Assembly: GCA_016839765.1 (NCBI GenBank)
Contig: JAEOTP010000043.1
Span: 64,001 to 128,000 of the forward strand
Direction: 5' to 3'
From: Promethearchaeota archaeon
GTDB lineage: Archaea > Asgardarchaeota > Lokiarchaeia > Sigyniarchaeales > SOKP01
DNA length: 64,000 nucleotides
The notes beneath the pieces are model-generated. The model saw only the letters and a program-made list of their open reading frames with translations, searched no databases and was not told the DNA's origin. The translations under genes and the position numbers were made by a program. Below are positions 10,315 through 17,234 of the stretch, one piece after another (the first letter of the stretch is position 1; every line of letters starts with the position of its first letter).

Positions 10315-10950
10315 ATGGATTTTGAGAAATTAACCGAATTAATTATAGAGTTAGAAGTAGATGATATTGCAGATGCTGTGAAAGAAGCTTTAGAAGTAGA
10401 TGATAAGGATCCATTTGATGTATTAAATGCATTAACAAAGGGTATGGATGAAGTTGGGAGAAGATATGAGGAAAAAGAGTATTATTTAACTGAATTAGTT
10501 CTAGCTGGAGAGACGATGAAAGAAGCATTTAAAATACTTCAACCAGCTTTAGCTACGTCTGACAAATCACAGGTTAAGACTAAGATCATTTTGGCTACAG
10601 TAAAGGGAGATAACCATGATATTGGCAAAAATATCCTTGGATCCTTGCTTTTGAGCTCAGGATTTGAGATTTATGACCTTGGAATGGACGTTGACGAAGA
10701 TACTATAGTGCAAAAGGTTAAAGAAACGGGAGCAACCATTGTAGGGTTAAGTACACTTCTAACTATGACTGTAGAACACATCAAAGTCGTTCATGAGGCA
10801 TTAAAAACAGCGGGGTTACGAGAACAAGTCAAGCTCATCGTCGGTGGTGCGCCACTCAACATGGAACTTGCCAAGAAACTCGGAGCTGATGACTTTGCAG
10901 ATGATGCTGTCGAGGGTGTAAAACATATTAAAAATTTTGCTGGAATGTAA
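10315..10950 (+). CDS. Corrinoid (B12-binding) methyltransferase protein, MtbC/MttC-like
   Basis: Cap domain GMDEVGRRYE...YLTEL; GDNHDIGKNI (DxHxxG); GLSTL; IVGGAP. Confidence 0.92.
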   Translation: MDFEKLTELIIELEVDDIADAVKEALEVDDKDPFDVLNALTKGMDEVGRRYEEKEYYLTELVLAGETMKEAFKILQPALATSDKSQVKTKIILATVKGDNHDIGKNILGSLLLSSGFEIYDLGMDVDEDTIVQKVKETGATIVGLSTLLTMTVEHIKVVHEALKTAGLREQVKLIVGGAPLNMELAKKLGADDFADDAVEGVKHIKNFAGM

Positions 10951-11159: not shown

Positions 11160-11420
11160 TTGAAGGTGTTATTTAATTTGACACAAGAAATAGAATATGA
11201 TGATGAGTTAGATACCAGAGGTTTATATTGCCCTGAACCTTTATTTGAAGTTAGAAATTTTTCAGAAACATTGGAGGCTGGAATGTGTTTCAAAGTATTA
11301 TCAGACGATCCAGCTGCCGAAGAGGATTTAAAGAGATGGGCAAAAAGAACTGATACTGAGTTAGTTGAATTTCATAAAGAAGGGGAAGATTTAATTTTTT
11401 ATTTCAGAAAGAAGAAATAA
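11160..11420 (+). CDS. tusA: TusA/SirA family sulfur carrier (probable start TTG at 11178)
   Basis: LDTRGLYCPEP motif, DDPAAEEDL. Confidence 0.9.
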   Translation: MKVLFNLTQEIEYDDELDTRGLYCPEPLFEVRNFSETLEAGMCFKVLSDDPAAEEDLKRWAKRTDTELVEFHKEGEDLIFYFRKKK

Positions 11421-11433
11421 GAGGTAGAAAAAA

Positions 11434-11793
11434 TTGGAAGAAAAATATATTTTATATGTTCAAACAACGGATGCTCCAGAGAGACAATACTCGCCTTTAA
11501 TTTTAGCACAAACAGCTAGGGCAATGGATATTAAAGCAACAATATATTATCTCGGAATGGGTTTAAAAATCTTAAAACCTGGCGTAGCAGAAAATATTCA
11601 AGTTGGGGAATTTCCTACAGTTAAAGAGATGATAGATAAATCACTTGATATGGGTGTTGAGATATTAGTATGCGAAGCATCAAAAAGGATGTTAGGTTGG
11701 GAAAAAGTTGATTTAATTCCTGGAGCAAAAATCGTGGGCGCAGCTACTTTAAATGATTTAGTATTAGAAGCAGATGCTACTCAATGGTTTTAA
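11434..11793 (+). CDS. DsrE family protein
   Basis: GVEILVCEAS, IVGAATL; DsrE/DsrF size and pattern; operonic with tusA. Confidence 0.8.
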   Translation: MEEKYILYVQTTDAPERQYSPLILAQTARAMDIKATIYYLGMGLKILKPGVAENIQVGEFPTVKEMIDKSLDMGVEILVCEASKRMLGWEKVDLIPGAKIVGAATLNDLVLEADATQWF

Positions 11794-11862
11794 ATATGGT
11801 GAGATCTTTTAAAACGATGTTAAATTGTTTTAAATATTAAAAAAGTTAGGAGGTTAATTAAT

Positions 11863-13053
11863 GTGAGCATATACTTGGATAACCAGGCAGCTAAACCTGT
11901 GGATGAGAGAGTTATTTCAGAAATGTTGCCATATTTTAGAGATAAATTTGCGAATCCTGCTTCTTTACATGCTGATGGTGATATAGCCACTGACATTTTA
12001 GAGAAGTCAAGGGAGATGGTGGCAGATTTTATAAATGCTCCGAATCCATCAGATATTATTTTTACTTCAGGAGCAACAGAGTCAAATAATTTAGCAATAA
12101 TCGGTGCTGCTAACTTTTATAAAAGAAAAGGAAATCATATAATTATTTCTGAGATAGAACATATTTCTATTTTGAATATTGCAAAATATTTGGAAAAGCA
12201 AGGATTTAAAATAAGTAGAATCCCCGTTGACAGATATGGTATAATACGTTTGGATAAATTAGAGAATTTGATCAATGATAGTACAATTTTAATATCTGTT
12301 GCATCAGCTAGTAATGAAGTGGGTTCTATCCAACCAATTGAAGAAATAAGTAAAATTGCAACTAAAAACAAGATTCTTTTTCATACAGATGCAATTCCTA
12401 GTGAAAGTACTTTATCAATTGATGTCCAAAGTGTTCCTATTGATATGATTACTTTATCTTCTAATGATATTTATGGACCACGTGGAGTTGGAGCCCTATA
12501 TTTGAAAAAAGGAGTGAGAGTTAATCCAATTATTATAGGAGGAGGTCAAGAAAGAGGTTTCAGATCAGGTTCTGAAAATATCCCCGGTATCGTTGGATTT
12601 GCTAAAGCTGCTGGTATTATGAAGAATGAAATGCCAAAAGAGGTCGAATATCTTAAAGGGTTAAGAGATAAATTAATCAGTGGAGTGCTTGAAATAATAC
12701 CAAATTCCCATTTAAATGGTCATCCAGAAAAACGGCTGGCCAATAATGCTCATTTTAGATTCGATTATATCGAAGGAGAATCTTTAATCTTGCAATTAAA
12801 AGAACATAATGTCGCTGCCGCTACGGGATCTGCATGTTCTTCTAAAACTTTAGAACCTTCACATACTTTAATAGCAATGGGACTACTCCATGAAGAGGCA
12901 CATGGAAGCTTGTTAGTCTCCTTAGGAAGAACAACAAAACTAACTGACATTAACAAAATAATTGAGGTATTACCCGGAGCAGTAAAAAGATTAAGAATAA
13001 TGTCTCCTTTAACTCCTCCTGAATTATTAAAAAAATATAAAGAGGTGAAATAA
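11863..13053 (+). CDS. iscS: IscS/NifS-like cysteine desulfurase homologue with Lys->Asp at the PLP site
   Basis: IYLDN, FTSGATESNN, GGGQERGFRSGSEN, GSACSS; SSND in place of SxHK. Confidence 0.9.
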   Translation: MSIYLDNQAAKPVDERVISEMLPYFRDKFANPASLHADGDIATDILEKSREMVADFINAPNPSDIIFTSGATESNNLAIIGAANFYKRKGNHIIISEIEHISILNIAKYLEKQGFKISRIPVDRYGIIRLDKLENLINDSTILISVASASNEVGSIQPIEEISKIATKNKILFHTDAIPSESTLSIDVQSVPIDMITLSSNDIYGPRGVGALYLKKGVRVNPIIIGGGQERGFRSGSENIPGIVGFAKAAGIMKNEMPKEVEYLKGLRDKLISGVLEIIPNSHLNGHPEKRLANNAHFRFDYIEGESLILQLKEHNVAAATGSACSSKTLEPSHTLIAMGLLHEEAHGSLLVSLGRTTKLTDINKIIEVLPGAVKRLRIMSPLTPPELLKKYKEVK

Positions 13054-13057
13054 AAGA

Positions 13058-13852
13058 ATGAAATCAACTCAATATTCTGAAAAAGTTCTAGACCATTTTC
13101 GTAACCCAAGAAATGTCGGAGTTATCGATAATCCAGATGGTTATGGAAAAGTTGGAAATCCAGTATGCGGGGATCTTATGGAGATTTTTATTAAAGTAAA
13201 AAAAAATGAGGCTGGAGAGGATATTATAGATGATATTAAATTTAGAACTTTTGGATGTGGTTCTGCCGTTGCTACATCTTCAATGGTAACAGAAATGGCT
13301 ATGGGTATGAAAGTTGCTGATGCCTATAAAATTACTAGAAATGATGTTGCAGATGAATTAGAAGGTTTACCACCAATTAAGATGCATTGTTCAAATTTAG
13401 CTGCTGATGCATTAAAGGCTGCAATCGATAATTATAGGCTCGGTACTACTTCTGAAGTTGAAGTTGCAACTTCCTGTAGTATACCTGATATCAAAGTTAT
13501 TCTTGGTTTAGAAGATTTTGTTGGAAAAGGTGTTTTTAAAGAAGTAGATGATTTATTTAAATTTAAAGATAAAAGAGTTTTAATATTAGACACAGGAGAT
13601 AAATCACTTGAACTTGCTCTGGAATTAATAAAATATACAGGGAGAGTCATTTTATTAACATCTGCTAAAAATACGCCTGGTTCAGAAGAATTAAAGAAAA
13701 AATTAAAGAAATCTGATGTGAAAATACTGTATGAGTCTGAATTACTTGAAGTAAAAGGAACTGACGATGTTGAAAAGGCTGTGATTCATGACTTTGATGA
13801 GGATGAGAATTATGAACTTTTTATTGATACAGTAATTTATTTAGAAAACTAA
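13058..13852 (+). CDS. iscU: IscU Fe-S scaffold fused to a degenerate TrxR-type Rossmann domain
   Basis: YSEKVLDHFRNPRNVG, GNPVCGD, FGCGSA, KMHCSNL; C-terminal ~120 aa resemble the TrxR NADPH domain. Confidence 0.88.
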   Translation: MKSTQYSEKVLDHFRNPRNVGVIDNPDGYGKVGNPVCGDLMEIFIKVKKNEAGEDIIDDIKFRTFGCGSAVATSSMVTEMAMGMKVADAYKITRNDVADELEGLPPIKMHCSNLAADALKAAIDNYRLGTTSEVEVATSCSIPDIKVILGLEDFVGKGVFKEVDDLFKFKDKRVLILDTGDKSLELALELIKYTGRVILLTSAKNTPGSEELKKKLKKSDVKILYESELLEVKGTDDVEKAVIHDFDEDENYELFIDTVIYLEN

Positions 13853-14093
13853 TAAAACTAAATTATTATTTTTCAATATTTTTTAAAATATTTTTGTAAA
13901 ATTCTATGCTTTTTCTTAATTTATTTTTTTATAATTTTTAATTCATAAATTCTAAACAAAATAAGTTTGATTATATTAGATAATATTTTAATTTGTGATA
14001 TAATTCATAAAGATGAGGTTTATATGAAACATTTAACTTGAATTATTAAGTTATGATATCAAATTACACAACCTTAAAATAGTTGAGTAAAAT

Positions 14094-16484
14094 ATGCAAA
14101 GAGTTGTAATTATTGGTGGAGTTGCTGGAGGGGCTTCGGCAGCAGCTCGTTTAAGAAGATTAAGGGAAGATTTTGAGATAATTGTTCTTGAAAAGGGCCT
14201 TTTTGTTTCATTTGCGAATTGTGGTTTACCTTATTATGTAGGAAATGTGATTAAAGCGCGTGAACAATTAGAACTGATGACTCCTGAAGATTTTTTCGAT
14301 AGATATAATATCGATGTGAGAATAAACCATGAAGCATTATCCATCAATAGAGAAGAAAAAACTGTAATTATTAAAAATCTTGAAATTGATAAAGAATATA
14401 CTTTAGAATATGATTATTTAATCCTTTCTCCTGGCGCATCTCCTATAGTTCCCCCTTTTAAAGGGTTGGAAAAAGTTCCAAGTTTTACACTTAGAACAAT
14501 ACCAGATGCTGTGAAAATAAGAGAGTTTGCCGAGAAAAATAAAGTGAAACATGTCACTATAATTGGGGGTGGATATATCGGTTTAGAAATGGCTGAAAAC
14601 TTGAAAGAAAGAGGAATAAGAGTCAAAATAGTTGAGATGCTTGATCAAGTTCTTTCACCATTAGATAAAGAGATGGCTCAATTTGTACATCAAGAATTAA
14701 TTTTAAATGGGGTATGCCTTCAATTAGGAGATGCTGTAGATTCATTTGAATGTGATAAAAATAAATGTAATTATGTGATACCAAAGAGCGGTAAAAAAGT
14801 TAAAACTGACATGATAATCTTATCTATTGGAGTTAAACCTGAAAATAAGTTAGCAAAAGATGCGGGTTTAAAACTTGGACCAAAAGGGCACATAGTAGTA
14901 GATGAAAATATGCGGACTTCAGATCCTTATATTTTTGCTGTAGGAGATGCAGTTCAGACTGTAAATTTTGTTACCAATGAACCAACAGCTATTCCTTTAG
15001 CAGGTCCTGCAAATAAACAAGGAAGAATCGCAGCTGATAACATTGCTGGAAGAACTTCTAAATATAAAGGCGTTTTAGGAGCTTCTGTTTTAAAAGTCTT
15101 TGATCTAACAGTTTCTTTTGTAGGATTAAGCGAAAAACAACTAACCAATACAGATATTAAATTTGAAAAAATATATGTGCATCCAAATAATCATGCTGGT
15201 TATTATCCTGGGGCCATTCCAATCACTTTAAAGTTGCTTTTTGAAGCTAAAAGTGGTAAAATCTTAGGAGCTCAAGCAGTTGGAGGTCCAGGGACGGAAA
15301 AACGTATAGATGTGATTTCAACTGTAATAAAGTTTGGTGGAACTGTATTTGATTTGGAAGAGTTAGAACTTACTTATGCGCCTCCGTTTGGTTCCGCAAA
15401 AGATCCTCTCAACATGGCAGGGTTTGTTGGAGCAAACATTATAAAAGGCGATCATCCCATATGGCATTGGGAAGATTTACCAGAAATACAACAAAATAAC
15501 AGTTTCCTTCTTGATGTCAGGACTCCAGAAGAATATGCAGTAGGAACTATAGAAAATGCAGTAAATATAAATGATTTAGAATTGAGAAACAGATTAAGTG
15601 AGATACCAAAAGATAAAGATATTTATGTGTTCTGTGAGGTTGGGTTTAGAGGGTATTTAACAACGAGACTATTGGTACAAAAAGGTTTCAATAATGTTTA
15701 TAACCTTACTGGGGGATATAAACTATTTAAGACTGCAGCTGCTACTACACAGGAAATTGCCGAAGCTTGTGGACCACCAGAAGAAATCATCGAAGAAATG
15801 ATTGATAGAAAGACTATTGAAACCGATGAATTTATGGAAGTTGATGCATGTGGTATTTCGTGTCCAGGTCCATTAAATGCTCTCATACAAGGGCTTGAAA
15901 GTCTGCCTCAGGGTAAAAAGCTAAAGATTTATGCTACTGACCCAGGGTTTAAATCCAGTGTAGAGGCTTATGTTAAGTTAAATGGAGGGGTAAATTTAAT
16001 AAAAATAGGTAAAGAAGAAGGTAAACTAGTTACGATATTAGAAAAGGGTGAATTAACTTCCGATGAACTAGAAGGTCCTGTTAAAGCTAATAAGAGGACA
16101 AGAGCAGAATTGAGAGCTCTAGATACTCCTTCTTTATCAATAATCAGTACTGATGAACTTTTTGAAAGAATTGATACAGAAGATTGTCCTGCAATTTTAT
16201 TAGATGTACGAACACCACAGGAATTTCATGGTATAAAAGGTCATATTAAAAATGCGAAATTAATACCATTAGGAGAGTTAATGAACCATGTGGACATGCT
16301 AAATGAGTATATAGATAAAGAAATTGTAGTAATATGTGAAGCTGGTGGCCGCTCAATGATGGCTGCTCAACTTTTAGTAAGAGCAGGCTTTAAGGATGTA
16401 CGAAATTTATCAGGCGGGATGAGAGTTTGGCACAGAAAGGGATACCCTATAGAAGGAGAATATAAATATCATTATAACATTTAA
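14094..16484 (+). CDS. CoA-disulfide/persulfide reductase (Cdr/Npsr) fused to rhodanese-TusA-rhodanese
   Basis: GGVAGG, SFANCGLPY, GGGYIG, YAPPFG; rhodanese FCEVGFRG; TusA-like DACGISCPGP; second rhodanese ICEAGGRS. Confidence 0.9.
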   Translation: MQRVVIIGGVAGGASAAARLRRLREDFEIIVLEKGLFVSFANCGLPYYVGNVIKAREQLELMTPEDFFDRYNIDVRINHEALSINREEKTVIIKNLEIDKEYTLEYDYLILSPGASPIVPPFKGLEKVPSFTLRTIPDAVKIREFAEKNKVKHVTIIGGGYIGLEMAENLKERGIRVKIVEMLDQVLSPLDKEMAQFVHQELILNGVCLQLGDAVDSFECDKNKCNYVIPKSGKKVKTDMIILSIGVKPENKLAKDAGLKLGPKGHIVVDENMRTSDPYIFAVGDAVQTVNFVTNEPTAIPLAGPANKQGRIAADNIAGRTSKYKGVLGASVLKVFDLTVSFVGLSEKQLTNTDIKFEKIYVHPNNHAGYYPGAIPITLKLLFEAKSGKILGAQAVGGPGTEKRIDVISTVIKFGGTVFDLEELELTYAPPFGSAKDPLNMAGFVGANIIKGDHPIWHWEDLPEIQQNNSFLLDVRTPEEYAVGTIENAVNINDLELRNRLSEIPKDKDIYVFCEVGFRGYLTTRLLVQKGFNNVYNLTGGYKLFKTAAATTQEIAEACGPPEEIIEEMIDRKTIETDEFMEVDACGISCPGPLNALIQGLESLPQGKKLKIYATDPGFKSSVEAYVKLNGGVNLIKIGKEEGKLVTILEKGELTSDELEGPVKANKRTRAELRALDTPSLSIISTDELFERIDTEDCPAILLDVRTPQEFHGIKGHIKNAKLIPLGELMNHVDMLNEYIDKEIVVICEAGGRSMMAAQLLVRAGFKDVRNLSGGMRVWHRKGYPIEGEYKYHYNI

Positions 16485-16643: not shown

Positions 16644-17234
16644 ATGAAAGAAACTGCTAAAAAATTATTTACCGCCTATGTTGGTGAGTCTCAAGCAAGA
16701 AACAGATACACTTTCTTTTCAAAAGTTGCTAAAAAAGAAGGATATGCTTTGGTTTCTAATATATTTCAGGAAACAGCAGATCAAGAGAAGGAGCATGGAT
16801 CATGGTTTTATAAAATGCTTCAAGGCTTCAAAAAAGAAGAATCATTTGATGAAATGAAAGTATTACCTGATGCAGAATTCCCTACAACCCATGGAACCAC
16901 TGTCGATAATTTAAAATCTGCAATAGCAGGAGAGAACATGGAGTGGCAAACACTTTATCCCGATATAGCTGAAACTGCAGAAAAAGAGGGTTATCCTGAC
17001 ATTGCAAAAAGAGTACAAGCAATTATACGTGCAGAAAAGCATCATTCAGAACGATATGGAAAACTACTTAAATTAGTCGGTGACGATGCGTTCTTTAAAC
17101 GAGGCAAAAAAATCGTTTGGATCTGCATGGAATGTGGTTATGAGGTAGAAATGGATCATTTACCAGAAGATTTCAAATGTCCATCATGTGATCATCCGAG
17201 GTCATATTATAGGAAGAAATGTGAAGATTTCTAA
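16644..17234 (+). CDS. rbr: Rubrerythrin
   Basis: GESQARNRY, EKEH, EKHH, C-terminal CMEC...CPSC. Confidence 0.95.
   Translation: MKETAKKLFTAYVGESQARNRYTFFSKVAKKEGYALVSNIFQETADQEKEHGSWFYKMLQGFKKEESFDEMKVLPDAEFPTTHGTTVDNLKSAIAGENMEWQTLYPDIAETAEKEGYPDIAKRVQAIIRAEKHHSERYGKLLKLVGDDAFFKRGKKIVWICMECGYEVEMDHLPEDFKCPSCDHPRSYYRKKCEDF

What the first reader, a model, noticed from the sequence alone, without database searches (positions are those of the whole stretch)
11160..16484. Candidate cysteine-independent sulfur relay for Fe-S assembly: TusA-DsrE-IscS(K->D)-IscU::Rossmann plus persulfide reductase
Seen: co-oriented tusA, dsrE, iscS, iscU, then a CoA-disulfide reductase carrying rhodanese-TusA-rhodanese domains, all with persulfide-type Cys intact; IscS cannot form the normal PLP Schiff base. 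Known: TusA/DsrE/rhodanese shuttle sulfane sulfur, and Npsr-type enzymes reduce per/polysulfides. Inference: environmental polysulfide, not cysteine, is passed to the IscS loop Cys and IscU. This would be an ISC-like system running on inorganic sulfur in the lineage closest to eukaryotes.
Basis: partly seen in the sequence, partly recalled or inferred. Interest (0 to 1): 0.75.

Follow-up and report, generated by a model that had tools for sequence, protein, structure and literature searches.

The report
Sulfur carriers beside lysine-less IscS-IscU

Summary
The genes, Cys residues and IscS Lys->Asp change are confirmed. The IscS is the known Archaeoglobus fulgidus desulfurase-dead type (PDB 4EB5/4HVK). 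The real unit is tusA-(dsrE)-iscS*-iscU. Outside Asgard, 73/80 Lys-less loci have tusA or dsrE upstream, against 0/35 normal IscS loci; these counts trace to one clade. A. fulgidus and M. acetivorans (isc1) carry the same cassette.

The CoA-persulfide reductase is not part of it. It is adjacent in 14/20 own-family loci, 0/88 others, and follows a T-rich gap. The IscU 'Rossmann' tail is a degenerate thioredoxin-reductase fragment. This genome also encodes an intact IscS, SufCB and SepCysS, so it is not forced onto polysulfide. The cassette is not Asgard-specific.

Best reading (0.4): TusA/DsrE deliver inorganic sulfane sulfur for cluster assembly or repair, fitting its recurrent oxygen-defence neighbours. 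Main rival (0.25): sulfur flows outward to SepCysS/ThiI/SAMP. No sulfur transfer has been shown. A published complementation with A. fulgidus iscSU alone failed; adding tusA/dsrE is the obvious test. This scan already reported the cassette on other DNA (26 findings).

The parts
11160..11420 (+). tusA, persulfide carrier (CPxP, Cys24). The true start may be the TTG at 11178, after an SD-like gaaggtg.
   Evidence: PF01206 E 1e-17; Cys in 150/150 cassette TusAs; sequence
11434..11793 (+). dsrE-family single-Cys carrier (Cys80); dispensable in part of the cassettes
   Evidence: PF02635; nearest solved structure 3MC3; Cys in 101/101; present in 14/20 own-family and 55/80 non-Asgard loci
11863..13053 (+). 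iscS*: A. fulgidus-type desulfurase-dead IscS (K->D202, H->N201, Q->P179, R->L351); loop Cys325 and IscU-binding residues kept
   Evidence: Best PDB hit 4EB5/4HVK, E 7e-132, same motif; residue mapping; single clade, support 99
13058..13852 (+). iscU scaffold (residues 1-127, all cluster ligands) plus a degenerate TrxR/FNR-type NAD(P)H-domain tail (about 137-260)
   Evidence: TIGR03419 over cut-off and TIGR01292 partial; ligands 99-100% conserved; full IscU-TrxR-like fusions in L067, L069, L117, L123, L187
13853..14093 (.). 241-bp gap starting with T-rich tracts: probable terminator of the four-gene operon
   Evidence: Sequence; T-tracts after the iscU stop in most relatives inspected; inferred
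14094..16484 (+). CoA-disulfide/persulfide reductase (CoADR-RHD/Npsr type) with extra TusA and rhodanese domains; family-specific neighbour, not a core member
   Evidence: PDB hits 3ICR E 2e-181, 3NTA, 8A56; four catalytic Cys in 113/113 homologues; four-domain form in 18/25 own-family genomes and in no other Asgard family searched
16644..17234 (+). rubrerythrin (context: oxygen-defence cluster)
   Evidence: PF02915
17314..17718 (+). desulfoferrodoxin/superoxide reductase (context)
   Evidence: PF01880, PF06397
19614..20822 (-). flavodiiron protein FprA (context)
   Evidence: ODP plus flavodoxin domains

Best explanation
tusA-dsrE-iscS*-iscU is one operon encoding a minimal IscS/IscU (MIS-type) scaffold complex. 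IscS* no longer cleaves cysteine but docks IscU and offers its loop Cys325 as a cluster ligand or persulfide site. Shown for the A. fulgidus orthologue: no desulfurase activity, and Cys ligation of a [2Fe-2S] cluster. Inferred: TusA (core), helped by DsrE (optional), picks up sulfane sulfur of inorganic origin (polysulfide, thiosulfate, or sulfur oxidised off O2-damaged clusters) as a Cys persulfide and passes it to IscS* Cys325 or directly to IscU. There it is reduced and built into clusters. This would complement the sulfide-using SufCB and the cysteine-using IscS in the same genome, most usefully when oxidants turn sulfide into sulfane sulfur. The neighbouring CoA-persulfide reductase is a separate, family-specific enzyme that reduces persulfides to sulfide; it shares the theme but is not needed.
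For: Linkage: 73/80 non-Asgard, 31/35 other-Asgard, 20/20 own-family and 16/16 Archaeoglobi Lys-less loci have tusA or dsrE upstream, against 0/35 canonical IscS loci. Every carrier Cys, IscS C325 and every IscU ligand is 99-100% conserved while PLP and substrate residues are lost. Five complete Archaeoglobi genomes keep the cassette with no canonical desulfurase found. TrxR/FNR-like flavoprotein fusions or neighbours recur, as expected if S0 must be reduced. FprA, rubrerythrin, SOR, peroxiredoxin or ferritin lie within 3.5 kb of 21/101 non-Asgard Lys-less loci, against 1/40 canonical loci, and that one adjoins a cassette. A. fulgidus iscS2U2 without tusA/dsrE failed to complement E. coli even with sulfide (10.1101/2024.03.20.586028), which fits a missing component.
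Against: No sulfur transfer is shown for any member. All Lys-less IscS form one clade, so the linkage is one origin retained, not many independent events. The E. coli IscS-TusA interface is not plainly conserved (IscS W45 and E49 variable; TusA R31->D/E, F58->R). In E. coli, TusA is an acceptor from IscS and cannot bind together with IscU. At least 42/50 cassette genomes, and this one, also have a Lys-containing desulfurase. SufCB already gives cysteine-independent assembly from sulfide. A canonical M. thermoacetophila iscSU also failed the same complementation, so that failure is not specific. Oxygen-defence neighbours were seen at 0/36 loci of other Asgard families.
Confidence: 0.4

Rival explanations
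1. Outbound relay ('reverse ISC'). The IscS*-IscU cluster captures sulfide and yields a persulfide on Cys325. It leaves in the textbook direction IscS->TusA->DsrE to supply SepCysS (cysteine synthesis), ThiI and SAMP/E1 thiocarboxylation.
For: In three Archaeoglobi the order is sepCysS-x-thiI-tusA-iscS*-iscU, beside a divergent sulfite/nitrite-reductase-like gene; A. fulgidus has SepCysS four ORFs downstream. This genome has SepCysS (44% identity, E 3e-117) and no CysK/M over cut-off. Its second, 80%-identical dsrE lies by MoaD/SAMP, TusA and E1. IscS->TusA is the established direction.
Against: SepCysS was next to the cassette only in Archaeoglobi, and in none of 101 other non-Asgard loci. 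IscU keeps a full de novo scaffold ligand set. An oxidant for sulfide is needed and not identified.
Confidence: 0.25
2. Cysteine-dependent in trans: the canonical IscS elsewhere in the genome persulfidates TusA, which feeds IscS*-IscU.
For: Intact IscS on C96 with all catalytic motifs. At least 42/50 cassette genomes have an HK-type desulfurase. Two of 40 canonical genes adjoin a cassette (L340, L359).
Against: Archaeoglobi keep the cassette with no canonical desulfurase found. About half of the canonical IscS genes (19/36) have their own iscU, so a detour is not needed.
Confidence: 0.13
3. IscS*-IscU uses free sulfide, as proposed for A. fulgidus. TusA/DsrE act as thiol-redox, iron-handling or regulatory partners, or only detoxify persulfide.
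For: Sulfide was proposed as the source for A. fulgidus (PMC8918507). Oxygen-defence context. The E. coli-type docking surface is not conserved.
Against: Single invariant Cys at the persulfide positions in both carriers. iscS2U2 plus sulfide did not complement.
Confidence: 0.15
4. One reading: the CoA-persulfide reductase is the obligatory entry point that loads or reduces polysulfide for the relay.
For: Adjacent in 14/20 own-family loci; all four catalytic Cys invariant; it contains its own TusA and rhodanese domains.
Against: 0/88 loci outside the family. Not found in six own-family cassette genomes of 91-100% completeness. T-rich gap, with insertions between the genes in five loci. Npsr/CoAPR enzymes consume persulfide and release sulfide (established knowledge).
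Confidence: 0.07

Closest known systems
Archaeoglobus fulgidus IscS1/IscS2-IscU (PDB 4EB5, 4EB7, 4HVK; D199K 4R5F)
   Same: Identical SSNDIYGP motif, loop Cys and loss of Q and R; same clade. The genome I identify as A. fulgidus (2,178,400 bp, IscS start nearly identical to 4EB5) has tusA-dsrE-iscS1-iscU1 and dsrE-iscS2-iscU2.
   Different: IscU here has a TrxR-derived tail. This genome also has a canonical IscS. In the papers I read, the A. fulgidus pair is treated without TusA/DsrE.
Methanosarcina acetivorans isc1 cluster (MA0807-MA0810; PMC7585200)
   Same: Lys-less IscS1, extended IscU1 (24 kDa), DsrE (MA0809) and SirA/TusA-like (MA0810) genes drawn in Fig. S1; co-exists with an active IscS2.
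   Different: Left uncharacterised ('genes of unknown function'); no relay was proposed in the passages read. I did not fetch this locus myself.
MIS (minimal iron-sulfur) system MisS/MisU
   Same: Type I IscS fold plus IscU with the full ligand set; no Fdx/Hsc/IscA genes in the locus.
   Different: MIS is defined with a cysteine desulfurase and no extra components; here the desulfurase is dead and two carriers are added.
E. coli IscS-TusA-TusBCD relay; DsrE3A-TusA of Metallosphaera and sHdr systems
   Same: Same carrier families with the persulfide Cys conserved.
   Different: Those relays run from an active IscS outwards, or serve sulfur oxidation. The E. coli docking residues are only partly kept. 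No TusE/MnmA or sHdr gene in this locus.
CoADR-RHD / Npsr / CoAPR (PDB 3ICR, 3NTA, 8A56, 6PFZ)
   Same: Residues 1-550 align end to end, with the SFANCGLPY Cys and the rhodanese Cys.
   Different: Extra TusA and second rhodanese domains; this form was found only in the window's family among the Asgard genomes searched.

Membership tests
A. fulgidus-type inactive IscS | Asp in place of the PLP lysine, loop Cys kept | tested here: met
   D202, C325
A. fulgidus-type inactive IscS | Same clade as A. fulgidus IscS | tested here: met
   76 Lys-less rows form one group, SH-aLRT 99, quick tree; the window protein was represented by its 98%-identical orthologue L032
A. fulgidus-type inactive IscS | No desulfurase activity; Cys ligates [2Fe-2S] on IscU | not testable with these tools
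   Shown only for A. fulgidus
Canonical IscS/NifS desulfurase | H-K motif, Q183 and R354 equivalents | tested here: not met
   N201, D202, P179, L351; below the NCBIfam IscS/NifS cut-offs
MIS system | Adjacent type I IscS plus IscU with C/D/C/H/C ligands | tested here: met
MIS system | Active cysteine desulfurase as sulfur source | tested here: not met
   Catalytic lysine absent
E. coli IscS-TusA relay | Docking residues IscS W45/E49/D52/R55 and TusA R27/R31/F58 | tested here: inconclusive
   R55, D52->E, TusA R27/D45/D51 kept; W45, E49, R31, F58 not kept
CoADR-RHD/Npsr persulfide reductase | CDR domain with SFxxC Cys plus C-terminal rhodanese Cys | tested here: met
   C43 and C514; E 2e-181 to 3ICR; just under the TIGR03385 cut-off
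CoADR-RHD/Npsr persulfide reductase | NAD(P)H- and CoA-dependent per/polysulfide reduction | not testable with these tools
   Needs an enzyme assay
Thioredoxin reductase / FNR (IscU tail) | FAD domain, GxGxxA motif, CxxC | tested here: not met
   No FAD domain; 0/56 tails have CxxC or GxGxxA

The most novel reading that the evidence does not exclude
The cassette is an undescribed, desulfurase-free sulfur hub of anaerobes. It interconverts inorganic sulfane sulfur on TusA/DsrE and Fe-S clusters on IscS*-IscU, inward for assembly or repair and possibly outward to supply SepCysS/ThiI. That would be a route distinct from ISC, SUF, NIF, MIS and SMS.
Probability: 0.35. Interest if true: 0.75.

Novelty: new variant of a known kind. 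Interest (0 to 1): 0.5.

Why it matters
How the desulfurase-dead IscS-IscU of A. fulgidus works is an open question stated in reviews, and a 2024 complementation attempt failed and asked what was missing. The conserved tusA/dsrE genes are the obvious candidates, so the question becomes testable by adding two small genes. If true, many sediment archaea and anaerobic bacteria have a further route between inorganic sulfur and Fe-S clusters or thio-cofactors. It has no special bearing on eukaryote origins: the cassette is not Asgard-specific, and mitochondrial ISC is of bacterial origin (established knowledge).

Tried and rejected
1. Complex prediction of IscS* dimer + TusA gave 'no answer' (score 0.00). 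It is not used as evidence either way.
2. RNA runs held only 0.05-0.13 of the words. There is therefore no expression or co-transcription evidence.
3. The sigma-70 promoter scan was at chance level (44 found vs 43 expected).
4. Aligning upstream regions of tusA, the reductase and rubrerythrin in the family showed TATA-like AT-rich blocks but no shared operator.
5. Literature searches for TusA+DsrE+IscS+IscU in archaea, for Asgard MIS, for AF0186-0188 and for CoA persulfide reductase + TusA found no paper interpreting the cassette. The library is incomplete, so this does not prove absence.
6. The DsrE classification preprint does not mention IscS.
7. A separate gene for the FAD half missing from the IscU tail was not evident; only full-length TrxR-like paralogues were hit.
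8. Rejected: a sequencing artefact or recent pseudogenisation. Unbiased protein searches gave N-D in 52 of 56 Asgard orthologues, N-S in 3 and N-E in 1.
9. Caveats: the DNA-pattern scan preselects N-D and stopped at 120 hits. Fisher values overstate because loci are related.
Full report
Observation. The first four are 13, 69 and 4 bp apart; SD-like motifs precede tusA, dsrE and iscS. The fifth follows a 241-bp gap that starts with T-rich tracts, as in relatives. The genome is a 96%-complete member of a Promethearchaeota family.

The IscS is a known type. Its best solved relative is A. fulgidus IscS (4EB5/4HVK, E 7e-132), with the same SSNDIYGP motif. That protein has Asp for the PLP lysine, binds PMP, has no desulfurase activity and lends a Cys ligand to a [2Fe-2S] cluster on IscU; sulfide was proposed as its sulfur source and the question is called open (PMC8918507). 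Mapped on E. coli IscS, 163 Lys-less proteins have lost K206 (D 97%), H205 (N 100%), Q183 and the substrate-binding R354. They keep C328 (100%) and the IscU-contact residues E309/E311 (100%). In a quick tree they form one clade (support 99) that includes Archaeoglobi, Bathyarchaeia, Thermoplasmata, methanogens, Asgard and several bacteria.

The conserved unit has four genes. tusA or dsrE lies directly upstream in 73/80 non-Asgard, 31/35 other-Asgard, 20/20 own-family and 16/16 Archaeoglobi loci, and in 0/35 canonical HK-type loci. TusA is the more constant partner (69/80 vs 55/80). TusA C24, DsrE C80 and the IscU ligands are 99-100% conserved. Because the Lys-less proteins are one clade, this shows long retention of one linkage, not repeated origins. 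One IscS outside the clade with K->Q also has tusA upstream (L291). The genome I identify as A. fulgidus has tusA-dsrE-iscS1-iscU1 and dsrE-iscS2-iscU2. M. acetivorans isc1 has SirA/TusA-like MA0810 and DsrE MA0809 next to Lys-less IscS1, drawn but not interpreted in PMC7585200.

The reductase is a neighbour. Residues 1-550 match CoADR-RHD, Npsr and CoAPR, and C43, C514, C590 and C748 are invariant in 113 homologues, so it is probably an active persulfide reductase. But it is adjacent in 14/20 own-family loci and 0/88 others. The four-domain form occurs in 18/25 genomes of the family and in no other Asgard family searched, and six family genomes with the cassette (91-100% complete) lack a match. 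It sits at the head of a rubrerythrin/SOR/FprA cluster. Enzymes of this type remove sulfane sulfur and release sulfide (established knowledge).

The IscU tail is the NAD(P)H domain of a TrxR-like flavoprotein, without CxxC or GxGxxA in 56/56 cases. Full-length IscU-TrxR-like fusions that keep the FAD motif but lack CxxC occur in another Asgard family and in Methanosarcinales, and stand-alone TrxR-like genes precede tusA in two loci. This hints that the cassette needs electrons. The window's own tail cannot supply them.

Genome context limits the 'cysteine-independent' claim. Contig C96 carries an IscS with all catalytic motifs and a sufCB pair whose SufB keeps the Cys/His/Glu residues. Archaeal SufB*C builds clusters from sulfide in vivo. 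At least 42/50 non-Asgard cassette genomes have an HK-type desulfurase. Five complete Archaeoglobi have only the Lys-less type as strong hits, plus SufB; their weaker class-V hits were not fully characterised, though one inspected homologue lacks the desulfurase motifs. So the cassette can persist without a desulfurase, but in this organism it is one of three systems.

Neighbours point two ways. Oxygen-defence genes lie within 3.5 kb of 21/101 non-Asgard Lys-less loci and 1/40 canonical loci, across several phyla, which fits cluster assembly or repair from oxidised sulfur. In Archaeoglobi the cassette adjoins SepCysS and ThiI. This genome has SepCysS without CysK/M and a second, 80%-identical dsrE beside MoaD/SAMP, TusA and E1. 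That fits outward supply of persulfide. The E. coli IscS-TusA interface is only partly kept, and in E. coli TusA and IscU exclude each other on IscS, so the docking route is open.

Verdict. Shown: a real, widespread four-gene cassette built on the published dead-IscS/IscU pair, with invariant carrier cysteines. I found no paper interpreting the linkage in the library searched. A published complementation with iscS2U2 alone failed, which makes the carriers directly testable. The scan has reported this cassette on other DNA 26 times; those notes are unchecked and are not counted as support. New variant of a known kind; interest 0.5.

Noticed in passing
L213 (G000:C79:6803-10987): A second dsrE, 80% identical to the cassette's, lies near MoaD/SAMP, another tusA and an E1/MoeB-like gene: a possible thiocarboxylate branch.
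   Followed up: partly
L212 (G000:C96:146737-152001 and 160100-160150): sufCB and the canonical iscS lie 2.3 kb apart; the start of another iscU is cut by the contig end 8 kb further on.
   Followed up: partly
L067:1335-2681, L069:8010-9356, L117:372-1703, L123:4258-5592, L187:4494-5828: Full-length IscU fused to a CxxC-less TrxR/FNR-like flavoprotein (443-448 aa): a candidate built-in electron donor.
   Followed up: partly
L075:7322-8905: IscU of 527 aa with an apparent intein inserted at the first cluster-ligand Cys.
   Followed up: no
L226-L229: A second Lys-less IscS group (H-R, H-V, H-H in place of H-K) with iscU in one Asgard family, outside the K->D clade and without tusA.
   Followed up: partly
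L291: Archaeoglobi IscS with K->Q, outside the K->D clade, with tusA upstream and iscU downstream: a possible independent pairing of lysine loss with TusA.
   Followed up: partly
L298:7453-13506, L300, L301: sepCysS-unknown-thiI-tusA-iscS*-iscU next to a divergent sulfite/nitrite-reductase-like gene and a second tusA in Archaeoglobi.
   Followed up: partly
L123 and L187, just upstream of iscS: A short ORF matching the rubrerythrin model (probably its rubredoxin part) stands between dsrE and iscS*, and no tusA was seen there.
   Followed up: no
window 10315-10950: A corrinoid-binding protein precedes tusA in most own-family loci, 209 bp away.
   Followed up: no
G000:C4, C45, C46, C58: Four more tusA loci: with dsrEFH-like genes and an HdrC-like gene, with a dsrE-like gene, with a yeeE-like gene and hydrogenase genes, and with an FrhB-like gene (labels read from sequence only).
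   Followed up: no
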